From: Styela clava
Taxonomy: Eukaryota
Assembly (NCBI RefSeq): GCF_964204865.1
Contig: NC_135260.1
Span: 7,378,001 to 7,442,000, forward strand
Length of the DNA: 64,000 nucleotides
Direction of reading: 5' to 3'
Shown here: positions 14,756 through 35,700 of the stretch, in pieces
Layout of the letters: the number at the start of each line of letters is the position of its first letter
Numbering within the stretch: the stretch's first letter is position 1
Position numbers and translations under genes: made by a program
Notes under the pieces: model-generated
The model's input: only the letters and a program-made list of their open reading frames with translations
Databases searched by the model: none
What the model was told of the DNA's origin: nothing

Positions 14756-17700
14756 TTAACAAGGTATTTCACAAGTTGGTCCTTTGAACGAAGAAGTACA
14801 GGTACATTCGTATTCTTCTTTATTGAGATTTCTACACTTCGCTTTATTTTTGCATGGTCCAGAATCACACGGCACTGAACAATAAATATCAATTAAAAAT
14901 ATATTTGTAAAATTTATATTTTTGTATTTATAAAAGTATACAGTATTGGAAAGACAGATGCCAAATTTTAGAAGATTCATAATTTGGTAATACGATTTTT
15001 CACGTCATACCTCGTAACAAGTAGGTATGTTGTATGTACAATCGCTCATGTAAGCTCTGAAAGACTGAGAATATCGTTAGAATAGTCGTAAGTTGTGGCT
15101 GTACCCAAATCACCATTCCCACGGCAAACTGATATTTAGGAATTTTCCACAGCATTTTAACAAAGATGATCTTAAGCAGATCTTAGTCTTGTTAGACTGA
15201 TCTTGGTCTTGAGAGATGGTATTAAAAGCAATAAACAAAAACGCCAACCTCATTAATTCAGTAAATCTTACTTTCACAAATGACTGACGCCGCCTCTGAT
15301 GAGCCACAATTGTGATTGCCCCATGGTCGATGCACGCAATCAGATATATGAGCCTCGTGTCCATTGCACCGAACATCGTCCAACCAGTATCCGCAATTAC
15401 ACTTTCCGAAGTGAGCATCGTGCACAGCTGCGATGGCGCCCGAATAATCGAGCATGCGACAAATCACATGAGCATCTTCTAGGTCCCATAAATCGTCACA
15501 AATTGCACGCCACTCATCATCATGGTAAATTTCAACTCGGCCTTGGTGATCGGCAACTCCATCGACGATTCTTACTATGTCATCTGATTCTAAAATTAGA
15601 CATTAAAAATAAATAAATTCGAAACAAAGTTGACTGTTGATATGATATCTCCGTTCAATCGTGTCTAATTTCAGAGGGAAAGAATTTGTACCGGTGGGGC
15701 GAAACGAACTATTTGTCAAACCATAAATATATACTACTAATACAAACTACTACTTAGATTAAATCATTTAGATAATATTAGATATTAATCCTTTACTGTT
15801 CATTACCAGGTCGCCTTGGCGTACCTATTGCTTTTTTTAGTTTTATTAAATAAAAAATTTATATAGTTCTACTTTATTCTATTTATCACGTTTTGTTAGT
15901 GTCTACCAACGGTGCCGCTCGTTCTCCAGATTTGGTATTTTCAGCATGGTGAAAAAAAAATTTCACTGATGACTGGATTTGACGAAATGTTAGGATCACG
16001 CCTATAGTATCCCCGTGTACTGTTGAGACTTACCCAGTCTTGAAGACTACCTACCTTCTGTACAATCGTCCACTCCTTCTATGCAATCACATGAATAAAC
16101 CGAATCGGTATGCTCTTGGAGCAAGCAATATCCGAGCCCTTCAGTACAAGGTGGATCGCATTTAGATTCGCCTGAATAATTTAAATAAAATAAGTACTAG
16201 TAAGTTTTCTTCTTTTATTTAATTAAATATTTCAAAATTTAATTCTAAATGAATTTAATATCTGGAAAATGCGAAAAAAAGAAAAATGAGCTACTTTGGT
16301 ATGCGATTGAGATCGCGTTTTGAGCAAGTGAAATCACATATCAAAGTGGCACAAAAAAATTATTCTAGTCATGAAATAATACCCTCAACTGTGCATAATC
16401 CGTCTCCGTCCAAACCAAAATTGCCTGTACATCTACATTCAGCCGATGAAAATCCATCAAACAATTTTCCGTTCACACAATCAATTGTTGCACAATCTAC
16501 CAGTTAATATAGAATCATAAAGAGATTTAACAGATTTTTTCCTCGTTAAATTAACTTTAATTTGTTTTTATTCCCTCATTTTAAAAGTATTATATATAAC
16601 AAATCAACTGCATAATCATTATACAGAATATGTAATTTTGGCTTATATTTTATAACGAATTTATCAACATGCTTGAAATATTTCCATTTTTGTTTCTCAA
16701 CAGTTAAAATAGTAATATTAGATCAGGAAATAAGCCTAGCGCGAGCAGTCTCCAATAATATAAACATTATGATACAATATAATAACATAAATCGGACAAA
16801 TGTAATAAGTGTTTTTAATGAATCATATACATTGATGAAATCAATAATTCAATTGACGGAAATGTTTCGTAAGCTTATGTAATAGCTATACAGTCGTGGA
16901 ATCAATTTACTTTTTTCAAGTGAAGCCTATCTTCTATAATTTATAATTTGTAAAAACAAAAGGTTTATAAACATAACTATACATAAAATAAAGGGTATAC
17001 TCCCGGAGTATGTGAACCAAGATGACGGACACCGGAACGTAGTATGTGTACCAGGTTAGGGTTAGGCCACAATTCAGGTACAAATACTATGGAAGTCACT
17101 TGGCTAGTCTCCGAATTTGTAATAGAACTAAAATAAGGAAAATTGGAATAAAACTATGGCCCAACCCTCCGGTGTCCGCCATCTTGGTTCACATACTACC
17201 AAATATATGGTACTCCCGTAGTATATGTACCAATTTGAGGTTGGGCCATAATTCATTCCAATTTCAGTTCTATTACGAGGTCGGGGACTGTCTGTGTTAG
17301 CCAAGTGAATATACCCTAGCCCATAGGTACATTTATACAACTTGATGTAAAGTAGGCGAACAAAATTAGTTACCTCGTATTGGTACACACACTTCTGGAG
17401 CTCTATTTATTTCAATACATGCAAACAAAAGATTTTGCAACGCTCGAACATAAATAGAAAATGTTCGCAGATTGAATGTACAAATACAAAAATTTAAATA
17501 TTATATAATAAAATCATTCATATATAAGATCTTGCCTATTTCATTGCACGATTTCCCACAAAAGCCTGCAGCACAACCACATTCTCCTGAAGTTATTCCA
17601 CATGTCCCATCGTTGCCGCAGTCATCATTCGAAACGCATGCTTCACCTGCTCATAAAATACTCTAATTAAAATAATCATAATATTTTAAATAATGTCAAA

Positions 17701-20357
17701 ATTGATTAGCTATGCTAGTGTTTAAAATTAGCCTTATTTTTGTTTGTTTGAGAACCCGTGAAGGGTTTGGGTACCGGCTGATTTAGCGCCATCAAATTCG
17801 ATGACGGTTTGTTGGTGCGAAATGAATCTGTCCTAACGGATATAATTTATTATAAATATATTCTATTTTTTTTTTTAAATTTAAAATATTTTTTCATTAT
17901 TAAATCTACCCTAAGACTGAATTTATTTTAATTTTTATGCGTCCGTTTAGCTTGGTTGTCGACAAATCGGATACCGTCATAATTTCGTTTTCAAAAGGCG
18001 ACACCATATGGCTAGCGAAGTAATCACTAACACAATACGGCATCATACACTACGTTACTCTGATCGGTAAAGCAACTGCCGGTATCTAATATACCAATGC
18101 TTAACTTCTCTTAAGCAGTGAACTCCTGCATCTTCGTCGTGTTCACAATTATGATCTCCCCACATATCATGTTCACATCTTGAAATATGCCACTCGTCAA
18201 TTCGGCAAGTAACATCTTCCAGCCATATCTGTCCTTCTCCTTCACCGTAGTATGCGTGACTGTAGAAAGCAGAACAATGGAAATAAAAGCTACTCATATT
18301 TTAGCAAACTGCATCTACGGAATGATAATTTTAATATATATAAGAATTTTAAGGCCCGAATTGTCAAACTAGTCAATATCAAAACTTTATTATATTTAGA
18401 ATCGATGGCATGTCCGGCTAAAAACAAATTCATCATATATCGTTAACACAGAATCACTAGAATAAAACTATGTTCACGTTTCTGCAGTGCATGTGCGACG
18501 AAATATAAAGCAAACAGTTGGCCATTACCGAAATCAATATTTAAAACTAATTTAACTTGTGGGCGCGTCACCCAGGACCAAGTGCTTGAAGCTTTAGACT
18601 TTGCTATGTTGGTACCGCTGGTATCGGATTGAAATCTATTGTCCACCAACCGACCCCGGGTAAAATATATTGCAACGCCACGCCTACCTATTTCTCGCTG
18701 GAATTTCATAATCCTAAATCTATTAAATATAATAAAATTTTATGATAACTATAAAGTAGTTTGTGTACGTGTGAGCAGCATACGCCCGCTCGAATCCCAG
18801 CATATGACAAACTACATTTGCTGCTTCAATACTCCAATTATCATCACAAATTGTTCCCCAGATTCCATCTCGTTTAATGAAAACCGTTCCTTCATTACTT
18901 TGTGTTCCAAATTCAAGTTTAACTTCCTCTTGTGGATCTGTTTAAAATTTATAACTGTCCTATTACATTGTACGAATTTAGATTTTGGCTTCAGCTAGGT
19001 CATTGTTGAACAAATGCAACCATTTATTGAAGTAGTAATATATTGAATAAGTTACATATAACCGAAAAACTTGTGACTTATTCAAACATAGAACTCAATT
19101 TTGCCCCCCTTTTGAAAGTGCCCACAACGAGATTATACTGAGTGAGCGACGGGGCCAAAATTCTTGTGCCAAAACCCTTTTTTCACATAATTAGTTTGTA
19201 TCACTGACCGGTGGTGGAAAGGAAGTAGGTGACACCTCGAAAATATCCAAAAAATGACAAAAGTGAATGAATATTAAATGTCATCCACTCGTTGACGAGT
19301 TGATTAGTTATGTCCAATAACGGGATTTAAGGTTGTTGTAATTTTACTCCAGGTGGATAAAAGAAATGTACGTAAGAAAATTTTTTAGAACATAGGAATA
19401 CTTAACATTGGAAATACACTCCACACCGGCAATGTCGTCTGTTTCGTCACAGTCATAAATAGGAATTCCCTGAAAAATGCAGTCGGAAAGATGTTCCTCC
19501 CGTCCCGAACATTGGACACGATTCATCCAGACAGGACCATCACCTCGACCATATTCCGGATAATTAAAATGTTCGACCGCTCCATCGAATCCCAACATTC
19601 GACAAACGACGCGAGCATCGTCAATATCCCAGTCATTTGAACAAATATCTCCCCAAACGTCATTGATTTTTACTTCAATTCGGCCTTCATTGTCGTGATT
19701 TCCATTAGCCAATCGAATGTCTGATATCATGCCTGAAAGGTAACAATATCGATTAAAATATCATCTAAAAATGATCTTGAAAATTACTTGGAATATATAT
19801 GTCTTATAATTCTGAAATTGAGTTAATATGTCGCCAGAAAAATTGTAATTGAGCAATATTACATTTTTTGTCTCTTTGACCGTGTCCGGTGCATTCCAAA
19901 AATTTGTTTATGTCGTATTCTCGTTCTTCTGCAAAACAGGTATAAGTGATAAATAAAACATAAACACATAATTGATTTTGAGAATGCTTTCTATCCTTGC
20001 TTTTTAAATTCGATAGGAGTCATTGTTCCGACATTATAGATCTTCACAATTGTTGTCAAACCTGGTACCGGTCGTATAATTAATTACTACACAAGGTTGC
20101 CTAAGCTAAAATTTTTGAAATAACCCGACATATTGAATAGCGATAAACATTATTCCACTATATCTATTTTTATTATATTTTGGAACATGGATGATGATGA
20201 TGCTTTGGGGTTGATAATGTTTGCTTGCGTCAACCGCAGAAGGAATATGTCCATTTAAATATTTACAGTTTTTAAATTAAAGATACATACCTGCGCTGAC
20301 AGAAATTGAAACAAAAAGAAGACAGAGTAATATCCTAAGTATGATAATTAAAAGCAT
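14756..20357 (-). CDS. Secreted SRCR/EGF protein (DMBT1-like), ~498 aa: SP-SRCR-SRCR-EGF-EGF-EGF-like-SRCR-EGF
   Basis: Exons 20291-20357 (signal peptide), 19406-19732, 18769-18937, 18105-18259, 17536-17646, 16383-16496, 16055-16171, 15272-15589, 14756-14874; total 1497 nt in frame. Motifs EGRIEV..WGDIC..DARVVCRMLG and WLDDVRC. Two donors are non-canonical in this model (see findings). Confidence 0.9.
16994..17404. mobile_element. Composite Merlin-like MITEs
   Basis: Family motifs GTATGTGAACCAAGATG, GTGTACCAGGTTAGGGTTAGGCC and GCGAACAAAATTAGTTACC. Confidence 0.7.
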
Positions 20358-21565
20358 AGTTGCTGTAAAGGCCTAAAATGTAATAGTGGTATTTCCCTTA
20401 TTAATAAGTATTTACTTTATTATTAAGAACTCATTTTTGATTTCAAGTCGGCAGAGGCCTTGGAGCACTCGCAATATTTCCTTGGGGTACCGGGTTAATC
20501 TAACTTTTATTAAATGAGATACAAAGTAACAGATACTTTTGGGAGTAGGAAAAAGAGTAGACAATGTATATGAGAGCAGTTGTTATCGTACAGTTTTATT
20601 CTGATTGAAAAGTTTTTTTTCACAACCGTTTTCGAAACTTGTTCGCCCTTGAATTATCAAAGATCGCGAGTATTTTTCTGCTCTATTCAATTGCAGACGA
20701 CATTTAATTTGCAAAGTTTGCTTGGTTGTATTACCAACTGATTCTCCTTTGTCTTTCACTATTGTCATTCTTCTCTTTGTCTCTAATATATATTGGGGAA
20801 AGTCTACAAGCAAATCAACTGAATCGGGTTCAGTGTGAATAATTATCGCGTAACACTGAACTCCTATTATATATTTATTGATAAATGCCTTGCTTTTCCT
20901 ACAAGCTCAAAGGAATAAAATTAACAATAGCATATTTAATGTGTATCTACAATCGTTTCTAACAAAATAATAAAAAGTTTTGTTTAAATTTAGTATCAAA
21001 TTAAACACGAATAACACTCATAAAACCTAAATCGTGTATAACTGATTGCGTACAACGTTAAGTTATTCAATTGATATAATTTTCTTGATTTTAACGCGTT
21101 GGATCGCATGAGTAATGTTTACTTGTCCATATCGCACGTAAAATTTGTAGTTATGTAACAGTCTTCCGTTAGGAATATGAATTCATTGGTTTCCTTAGAG
21201 GTATTACCTATAAATATCCGGCTATTTATTTATATTAAGATATTCATCAAGAACGTCGCATTGCTAAAATGAACAAGTTTGAAATTTGGCTAAATGATAC
21301 TGCCTTCAATGATGCATAGTAACAATCGTTTTGGCATGAGAAAACTTGATAGCGGCGGGGTTGCGATTTTGCAGACTCAGCTTGGCACAACAATTTTTTC
21401 CTAAATATGTTTTTTTACAGGTTAGCTTCAGGAATTGGCCGTATAGTACTACGTAGAGTGATCAGTACTCTTGGAAATATCCTCAAGATTTTTTTATTAA
21501 TTACTATCCATATATAAGCGAGGAAATTCTCAAACCTTAAAATGTTGTTTTCGATCCTTCTATAG

Positions 21566-22313
21566 CATGGTCGTCCAACCCGTGGCCCGCCGAAGGTTTC
21601 CGAGTGGCCCGCGCGGCATTATTCGAATCTGTGAAACCTCCAAAAAAAAAAATATTCCTCATCATTCAAACGCGCGAGAAGCACCACCCATGGTCGTCCA
21701 ACCCGTGGCCCGCCGAAGGTTTCCGAGTGGCCCGCGCGGCATTATTCGAATCTGTGAAACCTCCAAAAAAAAAAATATTCCTCATCATTCAAACGCGCGA
21801 GAAGCACCACCCAGCTATCGAAAGCTTATTTGTGTCCCTTTGTGAGCGTTATTCCTGGAGAGAGATGTTTGGATTTATTTTTATCGTCTGCCATGTATTT
21901 AAATCTGTTTTTCTGTGAAGCTAGAAGAGGCAGTTTTGATGACCTCAATATTTGACAGCAGCAAGTTTTTTCGCGGATGAACCATGTCAAATCCCCCGTG
22001 CGATCACTAATTTCTGACAGTCATATGAAAAATTCGCTATGCATTGCAGCATCGTCCATCGCACCGAACATTGACAAACTTATTGAATAAAAGCTTACTT
22101 AAGTCATACTTGACATCGAAATATCTATGTGTGATAAACTTTTGACTTAACTGTATCTTCGTATTTTCAATGCTTCATAATTTTGGTGTGAGGGCTTTGT
22201 TTGGTTTTTCATTAATCTGTAGTCGGTGTAGTGGAGACTATAACATAACAACCTTGTCAAGTGGCCCGCGCACTCATTCGTAAACTAAATGTGGCCCTTT
22301 GGCCAAAAGGTTG
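21566..22313 (+). mobile_element. Defective hAT (Charlie/SPIN-like) element with tandemly duplicated 123-bp 5' end
   Basis: TSD TTCTATAG/TTCTATGG. 123-bp repeat at 21566-21688 and 21689-21811. Transposase C-terminal remnant QVFSRMNHVKSPVRSLISDSHMKNSLCIAASSIAPNIDKLIE at ~21962-22090. Confidence 0.8.
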
Positions 22314-22590: not shown

Positions 22591-23247
22591 CTACAAAGCA
22601 TTAACATTTTCTCTTCGTACATCAATCTCAGACATGTATCCGACGAGCAACTCTATGAGGTCATACCAAATAGAGATATCAGACATTTGGTTGCTATCAA
22701 GGGCATCTGCCGTTGGATCTGACGTTTCAATTAGGTTTGTTTGTTGTTCGTTTTGAGTATACGCGGGATAGGCGTGTTGGTAGTAGCATTTAATTCCGTA
22801 TCTGCAGTTTCCCCTGCCTTGTTGAAATCGTCTGCATGGTGTTTTCGACATTTCATATTTGTGGTTCAACATCAATTTTCTTTTTTCCCGAGGGTCCGTC
22901 ACCCAATTGTTACTAGGTGTGACGAAATAAGAGGGTACGCGACAAGCAGGACACGCTTTGGTTACTGGACTCTCCAACGACCTTGTACACCGCCATGTTA
23001 TTATGCATTCAAAGCAAAATACATGCGAGCAGTTATCCAACAGGCCGTATTTATTATTACTGTCTCTTCCTTTATCGAAGCTTTCCATGCATATTCCACA
23101 GGTTGGCTGTTCTTGTTCTGCTGATGAATCGCTACCGGTACTGCTTGCTTTTTGCAGCTCAGCTTCCTTTCCAGGTCTATCTGATTCGACAATGTTTTGC
23201 CGGTTCCTGTAACCGCTAGAAACTATTTGTGATTCGATGCTGTCCAT
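22591..23247 (-). CDS. Intronless makorin-like RING E3 ligase (C3HC4 RING + C-terminal C3H finger), 218 aa
   Basis: CGICME..YGLLDNCSHVFCFECIITWR..CPACRVPSYFVTPS..WV and PCRRFQQGRGNCRYGIKCYYQHAYP are makorin signatures. No N-terminal C3H fingers are seen. Confidence 0.88.
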   Translation of the reverse strand: MDSIESQIVSSGYRNRQNIVESDRPGKEAELQKASSTGSDSSAEQEQPTCGICMESFDKGRDSNNKYGLLDNCSHVFCFECIITWRCTRSLESPVTKACPACRVPSYFVTPSNNWVTDPREKRKLMLNHKYEMSKTPCRRFQQGRGNCRYGIKCYYQHAYPAYTQNEQQTNLIETSDPTADALDSNQMSDISIWYDLIELLVGYMSEIDVRRENVNAL

Positions 23248-27166: not shown

Positions 27167-27730
27167 TATATTTGAGCATAGCTCTCTTGTTTTACTTGAC
27201 AACGATTCTGTGTGGCCCGTAAATGGTCAGTGATATTGAACTTTGAACCCAATTTTGAGTGTTGTCTAATTATTATGAAAATAACTAGAACTATTATGAG
27301 AATTAACTTTAACTGTTCAGAACTCGAGTTTGTTCAAAGTTTTTAGTGCGGAAAATTCATTCTATAAGATAAGATAAGAAAAACACATAACATTAAATTA
27401 ATTTTCTATTTGTTGAATGTTGTTATACGAACGAAAATACTTCATATCAACCTACTGATAACAGATATAATTTATCACCTGACAATTTGTCCGTCAATGT
27501 TTATTACGCACCCTCGCCGTATCCCGCTATGATAAAGTTATCGAACTTTATCGCAATTTGTAGCCTTGTAACACTTTCTACACGAACAACGAATTATCAA
27601 TTTCGCAGCTCCGATTAGCACTAAAACGCATCGAGATGTTGTGATTCTGCTTTGAAGCTTCAATACATAAATATAGTTGTTGGTGGCAGCAAATCATTCA
27701 GTCTTAATACGATTATCTCAACAACACAAT

Positions 27731-28390
27731 ATGAACTCGAAACAATCATCTTGTGCAGACCAGCAATTAACCAACAAAGATTCTCAAGACAAATGTTGTA
27801 AAGACGATGAAATTGTTTGTGGAATTTGTATGGAAGTCGTATGCGAGAAGGAAGATTCGGAAAGAAGGTTCGGATTACTTGACAATTGTGTCCATGCGTT
27901 TTGCTTTGAATGTATAATACAATGGAGATGTACTAGGTCATTAGAAAGTTCTGTCGTCAAATTATGTCCCACATGCCGGACTGCGTCTTCGTTCGTGACG
28001 CCCAGTGAAGAATGGGTTACTGATCCAGAAGAAAAGAAGGCTTTAATGATCAAACACAAAAAGGAAATGTCACTCACACCATGTCGAAGATTTCAGCAAG
28101 GCAAAGGAACCTGTCGATACGGGACAAGGTGTTATTATTTGCATGCGTACCCAGACGGCACAACAGCAGAAGAAACTATCAACCTCTTTGCTCAAAACCA
28201 ACTTAGATATCCAAGTGCAAGGGCAGGGCGAGGCACATGGTATGAATTTGTTGAAGTAATTCATCGAAGAGTCTCTCTCAATCCACAAGATTTATTTGAA
28301 CTTGTTCGAGTCATGCATATTCATGCTCAAACCTTGGAAGGGCTCGGATACCAAGCTGACTATGAATGGGTATTGACTGGTCGTCGATAA
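27731..28390 (+). CDS. Intronless makorin-like RING E3 ligase (RING + C-terminal C3H), 219 aa from first ATG
   Basis: CGICMEVV.EK..RRFGLLDNCVHAFCFECIIQWR..CPTCR..FVTPS..WV and PCRRFQQGKGTCRYGTRCYYLHAYPDG. Confidence 0.9.
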   Translation: MNSKQSSCADQQLTNKDSQDKCCKDDEIVCGICMEVVCEKEDSERRFGLLDNCVHAFCFECIIQWRCTRSLESSVVKLCPTCRTASSFVTPSEEWVTDPEEKKALMIKHKKEMSLTPCRRFQQGKGTCRYGTRCYYLHAYPDGTTAEETINLFAQNQLRYPSARAGRGTWYEFVEVIHRRVSLNPQDLFELVRVMHIHAQTLEGLGYQADYEWVLTGRR

Positions 28391-29729: not shown

Positions 29730-32700
29730 TTATGTCGAATGCTGTTTCATAGGTGATTCCACATCTTCCTTGTTTTCTGTATTTTTTTCTGTTGATGCGA
29801 CATCTGTAGGTTGATGAGATTTTCTTTTTCTCCATTTTTCGAAAGTTTCGCTTGAATTATTCCAAGAATTAATGAAGGATAATGAAATGCTTTTTGCTGT
29901 TGCTGCTCGCACTTCCTTCCCCACAATGCAGTAAACCACGAACACAAAGAAACCTTGCAAACCGTTGAGAACGACATTCACGTACATAAAAACAAGCTGC
30001 GTTGTTTGGTCGTTTGCATCTATATTACAAGAAAACGAATACGTATTAATTTAGCTATTAATAGCTATTGAAGATAAATTTGGTAAAAGATTGTGTTCGG
30101 ATTAAGAAGCAGTCCATTACATATTATGATATCAACAAAGATTAACAACACAAGTCGCCTAGCTTTATCGCTGATCAAACTGTGCTTTTTATTGCCACCA
30201 ATGTACAATCATAATTATTATAGGGGAGTGTATAGGTGCATTTATAAACAAAAAACTATTTTCTAACTGTCTTTTTTTATTGGTATCAATGCTCATAATT
30301 TGCCACTAATAGTAGAAATTAAAGAAATTAACGCGAAGAGAGAAGTACGACTGCCAATATCGGAATCCAGTCGCCTTATGATAGTTTAATGTTCACTCAA
30401 ACAAGCGCGCGTATCGTACTAACTAATGCGTATTATTACAAAAGAAAAAAATCGTTTTAATGTTTATATGATTACATTTTCCACTCAATGCGAAATTAGT
30501 ATTACAAAAATTTAGAACATCGCGAACTCGAAAAGTTTGAGAATTTCTGTGTTATTAATTTATCGATAACAATGAGGAACAAATACGTATCAAATGTCTT
30601 GTACGCATAACTTACTTGCAGCAAACAAAAACATCCACGGAATTCCCAACGAAGGTATGAGTAACGCAGCTGCTTTCAGAGACGCACCAAGATATTTCAG
30701 GTAATCAATATCAAGTATGTGTTTATTTTTTCCTTGTTCCATTGGCTTGAAATTCCTTGCTTCCAGCGTCTTGCGATAAACAAATACCGCTACTCTTATT
30801 ACTATAATGAAGTTTATTAGTAACAGAATAGCCACTGGTACTATCGCTGACCAACGAATACCAGACATCGCACTTAACCAGCAATAATCGTACATGGGGA
30901 TGGTATTCGATTCCGAACCCACACTTTTTGAATACAGATCGTTGAGTTGCATATATATGCCACTTGAAAAACCAATTGCTGCGACAATGGCACAAACTAT
31001 TCCAGGCATCCCCCAGCTAATTATCATCGACGTTATTACGATTTTTCGTCTTTTTGCACGTACGAACGCTAATCCAGAGGTCTTGATGAATAGGAGAGTT
31101 GCTTCATTTGTCATCCAAAATGCTAAAAAGAGAGTTGCAATTTAGCGCATTAATGGAAAGTGATTAAAAAATCTGTAGAGTGTGAAAACAATTACACCAA
31201 TGAATACACTTGAACACGTTAATTAACAAGTTTTCACCGGTTACCTGGTACGGACCGGTCGAGAGGCGTGGTGATTAAGCCGTCTTATCGGTTTTCTTTT
31301 TCCCAAACACTATTCTATGAACATTGTGCTTGATTGGTAATGCACATCTTGTGTAGCTGCCTCTAAATTGAAGCCAGCTGTCAAATGGCCGCCTAATATA
31401 CCCTCTACGGGTGAGGCCATTCAAATGATGATTGGGACCATAAATTATACCAATCACTTACTCAACCTATAAGTAGTTGTTCACAAAAATAGCAAACGAA
31501 ACTTGAATTCAAAATTTGTAGCTATTTTATGAGGAAAATACTGACTATGAGTTCTCACTATTCGTTTGAACATTACTGCATGATGAATTAGTATGAAAGG
31601 ATAAATAAATGCGTTAAATAAAAAAACCATTATTTCAAAATTATTTTGTCCACTCGGCTAAAAAATTTGTACAGCTCACTTGTTATATTTCTATTAATAG
31701 AATACATCAAGTACTTCAATTTTAAGCAACGATATGTCTGTCACATTTTGAAGGAATACTCTATACCAGCTCTTTCTCCAGGGAAAAACTTTGTTGTTTT
31801 CGGGAGAAAATACTTGAATATTTTCTATACGAGATAGTTTTAATATGATTCTTTAGCTAGTATGGTATAATTGTACATATTTAACGGCACATTATAAACT
31901 ATCGAAACTATCAAAAGCCAGAGTACGAGTTACTTGTTCCATGAGTTGCGGATTTTTAAAGATAGGAAAATAACGGAAAGTGGAGTGTGGAAAAGAAAAA
32001 ATAAGATTCAAAATAGGAAAAGGGAGCAATGTTTTGAAAAAAAGTTGGACAAGTAATTCTCTATACCCTTTTAAAGCGTGTTAGATCTTTATCATTTGAG
32101 ATATTTCTTAGACGTAATGTTACTTTGACCCAAGAGAGCTACCTAGGATATGAAAGAATATTTAAACTACGATTAGTAAGTAAAATATTAACGTGGAGCG
32201 TATATCAAAAATTTACCTGTCGACAACAAAAAGAAATGCATAAGCACTGCAGTAGCACGACAGAAGATTGGGTAATGTAGAGCTATGTCACTCATCAATA
32301 TCCAGAAATGCAGGAGAGCCAATGAGACAACAAGATTGATTTGAATCGCAATTCTTTCTCCTCTGACCTTCTTTCTCACGCTTACAAGAATATAGAATGT
32401 AATTGCAAGAAATACTAGAGAGATTGACTGCATCGCTATTGAAGCAACCTAAAAGAAGAAAATATAGGAATCAATATGTAGGCGAACATAATTAGTTACC
32501 TCCATATTGGCACACACACTTCTGGAGCGTCGCAAAATTTTTGATGGTTATTTTGAGTGTTTTTGCGAGTTGGATCTTACATACTGGTTTACATGTTTCA
32601 TAGTCAGCAATTTGATTCAAAACATTTAATCAACTGCCATTTAAAAGCACTGATAGCTAACTTTAGCCAAGTCTATCGTAGTTTTTTCGGGACTAATTTT

Positions 32701-35700
32701 TGGTTACTAAGCTAAAGTTAAACTACTTGGAAGACAAAATGACCATTGAATTCTTCAATTCATACTTCGGAAACACAAATAAAAACTGATAAATATCAGG
32801 CAAAATCACAAAAACGAGCCAACTTTAAAAGCAATGCGTGGAAATCTGTCTGAATAAAAAAAGGACCTGGTCGGCTGCTAAATTTTCAATTGTTTGCCGA
32901 TTAACTACGTCGATGCTCGATGAAACAACCATCGATTCCACATTTATAGTTTTACCAAATTTACTATTTATATTCGAAGCGACCCTTTTCTATGACAATT
33001 TCTATTCACCAAAATAAAAAAAAGGCAAATTGTTATGTGATATCATGATTAATATCTGAATAACATCTATTTAGGTTTTAACAATTTTTTTGTTCCAGCA
33101 AATATTTCCAGTAAAGATTCCTAGTGGAAATAACCAGTCCTCGTCACTGTTTGAGTTATAGTTCAGTTAATTTCTCCTTACCAAGAGTTAAAGTACATAA
33201 TTATGACGACAATGCATTAGCATTATGAAACTCGAATATCGTCATCGCTTACTCATGTCAATCATTGTCATATTTATGGACGCGTACTATGTATTCGGAA
33301 GTAACTTAGATAGTACAACAGACTTTGCAAAATATATTTCACATATACAAATAAAAAATAAACAACATTTAGTAGCAATTTCAAGGTTATTCCGTTTGGG
33401 GAGTACTTGAGTAAATAACTTTAATGTAATTAAGTTCTCTGTAATGACGTTGCTTAATCTATCTATTTATAACGCTACACAACACGTATTATGTCTCTGA
33501 ATTTTAAGAAAAAAATTCTTTGTCATTACCATTTGTCTTTCAAATTCAAAACTGAAACCTTCAGTAAGTATGTTACGCATGTAAACCAGCCCTTACGTCA
33601 CTAAATTTTTATCGTGTCTTTATTGTTTTTCTACCATACGAATTAGAATGCGGCTGTGCATTGATTCAATAACACTATACATATAATAACACTCAACATT
33701 TGTTTCAATTTACTCAAGTTATCTAATAAAAAAGAAAGGGAACACACCTTAACTCCGTGTGGAACGACCACTGTTTCTACAGCAAGTATGACTGCAAAAG
33801 TTGTAGTATGAGTACTGACACATTTTGCTATGTCCCCTTCTTGAATGCAATCGCAACCACTCCGGTTGAAATTCGAATTGGAATCAATGAAAACGCATTG
33901 CGGTTGAAGCCCAAGGAAGCGACTTGTGCTTGCCAACAAGGATTCATCTCCATCCTCGAATGTCAACCTTCTGGCAAGTTTTGCTATTGTTTTATTTGCC
34001 TCCAATTTGTAGCGAAATGATATTCTCGATGCACTAATAGGTTTTCCTGAATTTCCAATTAAATTAATAAGAAGTATCCGATTGATTGGCTGTGATAATA
34101 CAGATATCTTCTTGTTTTGGTCATATAATAGAACTGATTCACGTATTAGATTTTCTGCCCTTTCACCATTTAGTTCAGCGCTCGCCAGTTTAAAATTACG
34201 TTGTTCTGTTGGAAATGATACCGAGGGATCTACGCTGAATTTTCCTAGGGTTAAAAGTTCACGAACGCCGATCAACGGCACACCATTGGAGTTGTGTATT
34301 TTAACGTGTTGAAATGTTCCCCGACCAGTTGAGCGATTGCAGTTTGTATTTTCGTTTGCCGCGTGACGTACAAAACATTCATCCATTTTCAATAAAGATT
34401 TGGAACCATTGCATCTTTGTTCATAATTGTTCTGACATAAATCTATAACAAATAAAAATGTTTTGTATTTGAACCTATATATATATCCTAATAAAGTAAG
34501 AAAATGCAAAAAACAGCAACCCTATTTCAAACGTCGCAGTTGGACAAACACGGCTGTTGTCATGTCAACATATACACAGTCGTTTGATTTTCAACGACTG
34601 TGCGACTGAAATAGAGATCCAGACCATGTTGCAAGTGCTGAATTTCCAGTTGAAACTACGTTACATTAAACAAACCCACTATCCACATGAAAATCCTTTA
34701 CTGAGCAAGCCATTCATATGGCGATTGGGACAATCTTATATCCCTATTCTCATGACCATTTACTATTTTCTTAATGATATGAAAATTAAATGGCGCTCCC
34801 GTAGTATGTGAACCAAGATGACGGACACCGTAACGAAGTATGCGTACCAGGTTTGGGTTAGGCAATAATTTTATTCCAATTTTCGTTATTTTAGTTCTAT
34901 TACGAGTTCGGGGACTATCCAAGTGACTTCCGTAGTATTTTTATCTGAAATTTTGGCCTAACCCTAACCGGATTCACATACTACGTTCCGGTGTCCTCAA
35001 TCTTGGTCCACATACCACAGGAGTACCGAATAAACAATACCTGTTCGAGAAATTGTGTTTCCGTAATAGTTTCATTGAGACTATTTTGAGGTAATGCGGT
35101 GAAGAGTATTGAAACAATAATGTGAAAAGATAGTGTGACAGGTGCAATGTGTACATGATGATTAACGCATCATAGTCAAAAATATTAAAACTACAATGCA
35201 AATGTATTCAAAGCACATATCATCAAGTTGATAATACTATGTCACCAGGCTCACAAGTAGGCTTACAGTGCAGGAAGTGTCGTGAAATGAAAACGTGAGC
35301 TATTTCGAAAGCTTATTTCACGCCCGTAAAGGCAAGTCTGTATGCAAACTATGCAATATCAGACTGTAAAATGGAATCAAAAACTACCGTTCACTGTTGA
35401 CAGTGACTGAAAACATATGTGATACCACATGCATCACAAATATCACAAATGTGGTTGCCTTTAAGCATGCAGCTTCACATGGTATTTCATGGTATTTTAC
35501 CATCGTCCGGAAATGATTTTTCTGTGGTAACAGCGACAGACCGAAATGGACTGGATGGAGTTGGTTCAGTATTTTCTGTATTGTGTGTAGAGCGCTGAGA
35601 CCTAAGTGCGATTAAGGTCGTTGGATTGGTCATATCAATCAAATCGCCCGGAACTGTTTTATCTGGAAATGCAGCTCAGTATAATTTATGAATATTGTCC

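What the first reader, a model, noticed from the sequence alone, without database searches (positions are those of the whole stretch)
18100..19410. Two SRCR-exon donors that fit the frame best as non-canonical G|TTAAG (TT-AG) 5' splice sites
Seen: the receiving exons (acceptors at 18937 and 17646) start in phase 1 and have in-frame stops just upstream, so upstream acceptors cannot be used. After the last Cys of SRCR1 and SRCR2 there is no phase-1 GT before the stop. At the position where the third SRCR exon has A|GTAAGA, the minus strand reads AAT G|TTAAGT (19406) and GAA G|TTAAGC (18105), i.e. consensus G|GTAAG with +1 G>T. These cuts give symmetric 327-nt and 324-nt modules and a 1497-nt ORF. 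Known: U1 can recognise GUUAAGU sites by shifted pairing, and TT donors are documented only as rarities. Inference: a retained non-canonical donor class; because of the redundant G it is formally equivalent to GT..CA. Weaker alternatives exist: AAT|GT to a third AG, GAGT|GT losing a Cys, CACT|GC, or an unseen microexon.
Basis: partly seen in the sequence, partly recalled or inferred. Interest (0 to 1): 0.72.

Follow-up and report, generated by a model that had tools for sequence, protein, structure and literature searches.

The report
Two TT-starting introns in one gene
In a sea squirt gene for a likely secreted scavenger-receptor protein, two introns begin with TT instead of the near-universal GT and assembled transcripts join the exons exactly there; such introns are a known rarity in humans, but two in one gene is unusual.

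Summary
Confirmed. Spliced contigs from 4 probable RNA runs (2 studies) join 19406 to 18937 and 18105 to 17646, as predicted. DNA contigs match both G|TTAAG sites. It also has one GC donor.

TT is no common class here: 0 G|TTAAG donors among 956 dynein introns (spike-in recall 75 of 84), and 0 clear cases against 74 G|GTAAG donors at EGF, sushi and LDLa exon ends, so under about 0.2-0.3% of introns. U1 and U6 are essentially standard; 3 of at least 743 U1 copies complement TT, which is background variation.

Best reading: ordinary U2-type TT-AG introns like human ETV1 and FBXO9, read by normal U1 in the usual register. A GT..CA cut, a 1-nt exon or a private allele is less likely but not excluded. 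Unexplained: two TT donors on non-sister domains (37% identical), and the gene's three non-GT introns have its three weakest acceptors. The scan noted a single TT-AG intron in another genome (e1-7590094).

The parts
20291..20357 (-). Exon 1, coding part (start codon; hydrophobic N-terminus, likely a signal peptide); GT donor
   Evidence: RNA pieces 20291-20374; CDS equals P0298; signal peptide judged by eye
19863..19928 (-).
   Evidence: joints 19928-20291 and 19731-19862, cut +1; donor at percentile 4.5
19406..19732 (-). Exon 3, SRCR domain 1, 327 nt, phase 1-1
18938..19405 (-). Intron 3, 468 nt, ATG|TTAAGTAT ... AAACAG (TT-AG)
   Evidence: joint in 4 of 4 runs; DNA contig identical; donor context percentile 64, acceptor 13.6
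18769..18937 (-). Exon 4, first half of SRCR domain 2; weak GT donor
   Evidence: donor percentile 1.4
18105..18259 (-). Exon 5, second half of SRCR domain 2
17647..18104 (-). Intron 5, 458 nt, AAG|TTAAGCAT ... GAGCAG (TT-AG)
   Evidence: joint in 4 of 4 runs; DNA contig identical; donor context percentile 89, acceptor 3.7
17536..17646 (-). Exon 6, EGF-like module, 111 nt
   Evidence: EGF-like by Cys pattern only
16497..17535 (-). Intron 6, GC-AG (TAG|GCAAGA), holds a high-copy repeat
   Evidence: loose end at 17536 is the reverse complement of the start of exon 7 in 4 of 4 runs; acceptor percentile 3.3
16383..16496 (-). Exon 7, EGF-like
   Evidence: exons 6+7+8 = 342 nt fill positions 536-877 of the X2 contig
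16055..16171 (-). Exon 8, EGF-like
   Evidence: as exon 7
15272..15589 (-). Exon 9, SRCR domain 3; canonical A|GTAAGA donor
14756..14874 (-). Exon 10, EGF module and stop codon
   Evidence: Pfam EGF E=0.003, below the curated cut-off

Best explanation
Both introns begin TT and end AG in the genome, assembled transcripts join the exons at those points, and the ordinary major spliceosome likely does the cutting with normal U1 snRNA. Inferred steps: (1) U1 pairs in its usual register across -1G and +2..+5 (TAAG; also +6..+8 TAT at intron 3) and tolerates one C8-U mismatch at +1. (2) After hand-over to U6/U5/PRP8 the cut falls before the TT. (3) Any cut one base upstream, at the overlapping GT, shifts the frame, meets a stop at codon 194 or 278 and would be removed by nonsense-mediated decay, so the pool looks clean even if the sites leak. 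Each site most simply arose by a +1 G>T change that survived only because the rest of the donor was near-consensus. The product is a 520-aa, likely secreted SRCR-SRCR-EGF3-SRCR-EGF protein of DMBT1/CD163-like type.
For: Shown: joints in 4 runs of 2 studies; DNA identity; CDS identical to RefSeq XP_039273184.2. In this genome's donor matrix the TT register scores at percentiles 64 and 89, the -1 GT register at 0.9 and 0.5. Both acceptors are ordinary YAG. U1 5' end ATACTTACCTG in 81 of 87 sampled copies and in the first 100 listed of 743 matches; U6 ACAGAGA in 53 of 58 copies; SNRNP27 C-terminus RQYMNR intact (that this Met is M141 is recalled). Human aAG TTAAGTAT (FBXO9) and aAG TTAAGTtg (ETV1) splice at +1 TT in a reporter, FBXO9 also at -1 (PMC6280755, section 6). 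-1 cuts give early stops.
Against: mRNA cannot tell TT..AG from GT..CA (both = 1 and 2). The RNA runs are from other samples than the DNA runs. Only one unspliced RNA contig (X2, 19236-19411) covers a donor, and one of its two differences is unlisted, so TT is not shown in the animals whose RNA was read. At the human rate (9 high-confidence TT sites, 269,375 junctions examined; PMC6280755 passages) two in one 9-intron gene would have a chance near 4e-8 (hand calculation), so something is left unexplained. Intron 5 lacks the +5/+6 GT that favoured accurate TT use in the human reporter. Contigs drop minor products, so efficiency is unknown.
Confidence: 0.8

Rival explanations
1. GT..CA register: the cut is at the GT one base upstream and the 3' cut falls between CA and G, giving the same mRNA.
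For: Formally allowed by the shared G. /GUUAAGU is the known shifted-register donor (PMC4856993 passages describe the shifted register; the exact motif is recalled), and -1 cutting occurs at human TT sites.
Against: Needs a second anomaly, cleavage inside an intact YAG, at both introns. The -1 register scores at percentiles 0.9 and 0.5.
Confidence: 0.06
2. A 1-nt exon (G), or a two-step recursive cut: GT(-1)...AG-G-GT...AG, with all four ends canonical.
For: Each TT intron holds exactly one AG-G-GT (G at 19176 and 17910), and none of the six GT introns of the gene does. 18% (66 of 363) of 350-600 nt dynein introns hold one, so both by chance is about 3%. A single-nucleotide exon is reported in Arabidopsis (PMC4674806, search listing only).
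Against: The internal sites are very weak: intron 3 acceptor percentile 0.1 and donor 0.3; intron 5 acceptor 7 and donor 14; upstream GT donors under 1. No half-spliced joint was listed (low cover). The flanking context is exactly that of proven human TT donors.
Confidence: 0.04
3. Private alleles: the sequenced animal carries two +1 G>T changes, and the spliced RNA comes from animals with canonical GT.
For: RNA runs (S2, S4-S6) are other samples than the DNA runs (S10) and differ from the window at scattered sites. No RNA-side contig proves TT.
Against: Needs the same rare change twice, both at near-consensus donors (8.7% of donors), in a gene whose frame is intact. Unbroken X10 contigs suggest no second allele at either site.
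Confidence: 0.05
4. A variant U1 (C8>A, 5'-AUACUUAACUG), fully complementary to G|UUAAGU, serves these donors.
For: Three such full-length copies with normal-looking upstream sequence lie in the C5 array, against one truncated C8>T copy.
Against: 3 of at least 743 copies (0.4%), scattered among normal neighbours and carrying other sporadic changes; mean per-site variation in U1 positions 12-110 is 1.8%. Expression unknown. Human TT sites need no variant U1.
Confidence: 0.05

Closest known systems
Human constitutive TT-AG U2-type introns (ETV1, FBXO9; also DDX46, NPIPB3/4) - PMC4176328 (passages), PMC6280755 (section 6 and passages)
   Same: G at -1, TTAAG at +1..+5, normal AG, in-frame mRNA; intron 3 (ATG|TTAAGTAT) combines the exon end of the FANCC mutant site with the intron start of FBXO9.
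   Different: Two such donors plus a GC donor in one 9-intron gene; an ascidian; intron 5 lacks the +5/+6 GT; cut site not mapped by reporter or lariat here.
Mutant +1 G>T donors: FANCC c.165+1G>T (PMC6280755) and C. elegans unc-73(e936) (PMC6140464, passages)
   Same: +1 G>T donor. For FANCC the paper shows competition between the -1 GT and the +1 TT; for unc-73 in-frame use rises with the SNRP-27 M141T allele.
   Different: Those are damaging mutations with low in-frame output; here the TT product is the only one assembled, and SNRNP27 keeps its Met.
Genome-wide non-canonical introns of larvacean tunicates and the copepod Eurytemora (PMC13326754 outline, abstract and section 21; PMC7072748 passages; PMC5714493 listing)
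   Same: Tunicate context; non-GT donors used in real genes.
   Different: There, about 10% to 95% of introns are non-canonical (AG/AC, AG/AT, GA-AG). Here 950 of 956 dynein introns are GT and 6 GC; TT is a rarity.
RefSeq XP_039273184.2 / .1, Styela clava, 'scavenger receptor cysteine-rich type 1 protein M130-like' / 'DMBT1-like'
   Same: The .2 protein is identical to the 520-aa translation through both TT junctions; the .1 protein (6 substitutions) reads through them too.
   Different: A database prediction; no paper found that notes its splice sites.

Membership tests
U2-type TT-AG intron (ETV1/FBXO9 type) | Genomic intron starts TT and ends AG | tested here: met
   (X10 contigs, 0 other letters)
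U2-type TT-AG intron (ETV1/FBXO9 type) | mRNA joins the exons at that point | tested here: met
   4 of 4 runs, 2 studies; other samples than the DNA
U2-type TT-AG intron (ETV1/FBXO9 type) | U2-like consensus around the TT (G at -1, AAG at +3..+5) | tested here: met
   percentiles 64 and 89 among 956 donors
U2-type TT-AG intron (ETV1/FBXO9 type) | Chemical cut before TT rather than before the -1 G | not testable with these tools
   needs lariat sequencing; joints are ambiguous by 1-2 bases
U2-type TT-AG intron (ETV1/FBXO9 type) | Site conserved across individuals or species | tested here: inconclusive
   no relative genome held; one RNA-side contig covers one donor and has an unlisted difference; no other tunicate protein among the best 120 listed of 615 hits
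Genome-wide non-canonical donor class (Oikopleura/Eurytemora/Fritillaria type) | Non-canonical donor in a percent or more of introns | tested here: not met
   0 G|TTAAG of 956 dynein introns, recall 75 of 84; 0 clear against 74 in-phase G|GTAAG at domain-exon ends
Genome-wide non-canonical donor class (Oikopleura/Eurytemora/Fritillaria type) | Matching change in snRNA or splicing factors | tested here: inconclusive
   3 of at least 743 U1 copies C8>A, at background level; U6 box and SNRNP27 standard; U2AF, PRP8 and snRNA methylation not examined
U12-type (minor) intron | RTATCCTT at the 5' end of the intron (motif recalled) | tested here: not met
   introns start TTAAGTAT and TTAAGCAT
SRCR-domain protein (PF00530) | SRCR domains above the Pfam cut-off | tested here: met
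   3 stretches, E=3e-83

The most novel reading that the evidence does not exclude
The gene has been selected to keep a set of handicapped introns: two independently arisen TT donors and a GC donor, each paired with one of its three weakest acceptors, around symmetric phase-1 SRCR and EGF modules. Together they act as a splicing throttle (the -1 cut feeds nonsense-mediated decay) or as a module-skipping switch for an innate-immune receptor. It would be a natural, multi-site test case for how spliceosomes choose between -1 GU and +1 UU, possibly helped by the huge U1 array and its C8A copies.
Probability: 0.2. Interest if true: 0.62.

Novelty: new member of a known kind. Interest (0 to 1): 0.38.

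Why it matters
+1 G>T donor mutations are usually scored as null in medical genetics, and natural TT donors that work are few (9 high-confidence sites in one human survey). A gene with two of them, one lacking the +5/+6 GT thought to help, adds natural sequences for finding the rules of TT use. It also shows that GT/GC-only gene finders would break this gene. It does not point to a new spliceosome or a new intron class, and the gene model is already in RefSeq.

Tried and rejected
Genome-wide TT class: a purpose-written spliced aligner on 17 dynein heavy-chain regions (800 kb) gave 950 GT and 6 GC donors. With any donor allowed it proposed 10 non-GT/GC calls (TA, AC x2, AA x2, AT, TG x2, GA, and one TT as CAG|TTTTGG in the poorly aligned C4b gene), none G|TTAAG; these 10 were not resolved further. 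Four further dynein-like loci (C9:9.53 Mb, C1:6.79 Mb, C4:14.04 Mb, C13 pieces) were not fetched. EGF-end pattern with TT: 11 matches (reversed control 19), 3 in phase, only L167 a real EGF, and it has a canonical in-phase donor 21 nt further on, so it is counted as ambiguous. The 74 in-phase GT matches (42 of 47 EGF, 26 of 26 sushi, 6 of 8 LDLa) were counted by length, not checked one by one. SRCR paralogues in 48 loci, read by eye: no other TT donor seen. Recent duplication of a TT-bearing exon: SRCR1 and SRCR2 are 37% identical and do not group in a weakly resolved 103-column tree of 55 rows; no formal one-clade test was run. The two introns align no better than random pairs (70% of nulls score as high); only +6..+17 look alike (8 of 12, 1.5% of null pairs). 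No listed holder is on record as RNA; the RNA label is the tool's guess, backed here by spliced contigs. Unspliced RNA contigs occur in GT and TT introns alike and cannot rank retention. X1 and X3 gave no spliced contig among the listed pieces. The first U1/U6 tally had an offset error and was redone. Supplementary files of the papers were not read; they may list further natural TT sites. Literature searches found nothing on TT donors in Styela or other ascidians; most subscription papers are not in the library.

Full report
What is there. The window is G000:C14:7378001-7442000 of a 377-Mb animal genome. A 99% identical database protein is labelled Styela clava, an ascidian. On the minus strand lies a ten-exon gene, 20357 to 14756, coding for 520 aa: a hydrophobic N-terminus, a 22-codon exon, SRCR1, SRCR2 (split by an intron), three EGF-like exons, SRCR3 and a last EGF. 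Its translation is identical to RefSeq XP_039273184.2, listed on a contig of the same length as C14. An older version with 6 substitutions reads through the same junctions.

Observation. The two donors are as described: AAT G|TTAAGT (19406) and GAA G|TTAAGC (18105). Contigs of four probable RNA runs from two studies join 19406 to 18937 and 18105 to 17646, with skipped ends CT..AA on the + strand, that is TT..AG (depth figures 18-35, 111-169 letters on the shorter side). The three other joints in that stretch are GT-AG. The exon at 17646-17536 ends at a GC donor and continues into exon 7. Contigs of a DNA run span both donors with no difference, which argues against an assembly error; that run may be the assembly's own sample. 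The RNA joints exclude the third-AG, GAGT|GT and CACT|GC alternatives.

Is TT a class in this genome? I wrote a spliced aligner and modelled 17 dynein heavy-chain regions against other dyneins: 956 introns, 950 GT and 6 GC. Allowing any donor gave 10 weak non-GT/GC proposals, none G|TTAAG. When 84 real G|GTAAG donors were changed to TT in silico, 75 were recovered. Genome-wide patterns for EGF, sushi and LDLa exon ends gave 42, 26 and 6 in-phase G|GTAAG donors and no clear G|TTAAG (one ambiguous EGF). G|GTAAG is 84 of 970 GT donors. Zero or one case against about 149 such donors bounds TT at roughly 0.2-0.3% of introns (hand calculation). At that ceiling a 9-intron gene has two TT donors with a chance of about 1e-4, so a few such genes could exist among some 20,000 (gene number recalled). 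At the human rate the chance is about 4e-8. So either this species has well more TT donors than human, or this gene is special; my data cannot separate these.

Spliceosome. U1 genes form a very large array: at least 743 matches, the listed ones mostly on C5 at about 750-bp spacing. The 5' end is standard in 81 of 87 sampled copies. Three copies carry C8>A, the exact complement of G|TTAAGT, but at 0.4% this is below the 1.8% mean per-site variation of the array, so I do not credit it. U6 ACAGAGA is intact in 53 of 58 copies, and SNRNP27 ends RQYMNRKGGFNRPL.

Mechanism. Shown: the genomic TT and the joined mRNA. Inferred: normal U1 pairs in the usual register. Against this genome's donor matrix the TT sites score at percentiles 64 and 89, while the overlapping GT one base upstream scores 0.9 and 0.5. 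A cut at that GT with the normal AG gives stops at codons 194 and 278, so such products would be degraded and the assembled pool would look clean. This matches human work: ETV1 has a constitutive TT-AG junction (PMC4176328, passages); ETV1 and FBXO9 sites splice at +1 in a reporter, FBXO9 also at -1 (PMC6280755 section 6); nine high-confidence TT sites were found in data covering 269,375 junctions, all primary sites (passages).

Rivals. GT..CA gives the same mRNA but needs cleavage inside an intact YAG. A 1-nt G exon is formally possible, since both introns hold one AG-G-GT (about 3% by chance from 66 of 363), but the internal sites of intron 3 are among the worst 0.3% of real sites. A private allele cannot be excluded directly, because RNA and DNA come from different samples and only one RNA-side contig, with one unlisted difference, covers a donor. 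Two identical rare changes, both in the near-consensus context, make this unlikely.

Left unexplained. SRCR1 and SRCR2 are 37% identical and not sisters in a weakly resolved tree, so the two TT donors are not copies from a recent duplication. The three non-GT introns have the gene's three weakest acceptors (percentiles 13.6, 3.7 and 3.3 against 46-86; 1 in 84 by rank, noticed after the fact), and three of the six GT donors are weak too (4.5, 1.4, 7.7).

Verdict. Real, RNA-supported and already in RefSeq as a protein model. It is a new example of a known rare kind of intron, not a new class. I found no paper on TT donors in ascidians. Papers seen: PMC13326754 (outline, abstract, section 21), PMC6280755 (section 6, passages), PMC4176328, PMC7072748, PMC4856993, PMC6140464 (passages), PMC4674806 and PMC5714493 (listings only); no supplements. 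Interest 0.38, for the double occurrence and as a natural test case.

Noticed in passing
G000:C5:2.38-4.67 Mb (L035, L037-L051, L053-L060, L161-L164): Very large tandem array of U1 snRNA genes (at least 743 pattern matches genome-wide, unit about 750 bp), including three C8>A copies; a second U1 type sits on C2, C10 and C18. U6 genes are tandemly arrayed on C1 at about 19.46-19.60 Mb.
   Followed up: partly
G000:C5:15083432-15096364 (L061, L062): A dynein heavy chain with a DYNC2H1-type Pfam domain lies in one open frame of 4311 codons with no intron, while the 17 other dynein regions modelled hold 30-68 introns each; likely a retroposed gene.
   Followed up: partly
window 22594-23247 (-) and 27677-28387 (+): Two related single-frame RING plus CCCH (makorin-like) ORFs on opposite strands.
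   Followed up: no
window 30593-34521 (-): Adhesion-GPCR-like gene (GPS and 7tm_2 Pfam hits).
   Followed up: no
window about 16998-17376: High-copy repeat with inverted parts inside the GC-AG intron (very high depth in DNA and RNA runs).
   Followed up: no
L167:2093 (minus strand of G000:C1 about 13.039 Mb): An EGF exon with no GT before its stop ends GAAG|GCCAGA, a likely further GC donor; the EGF exon before it has both an in-phase G|TTAAG and a canonical donor 21 nt further on.
   Followed up: no
window 21501-21918 (+): Short direct duplication (a repeated stretch of about 120 nt) visible in the ORF translations.
   Followed up: no
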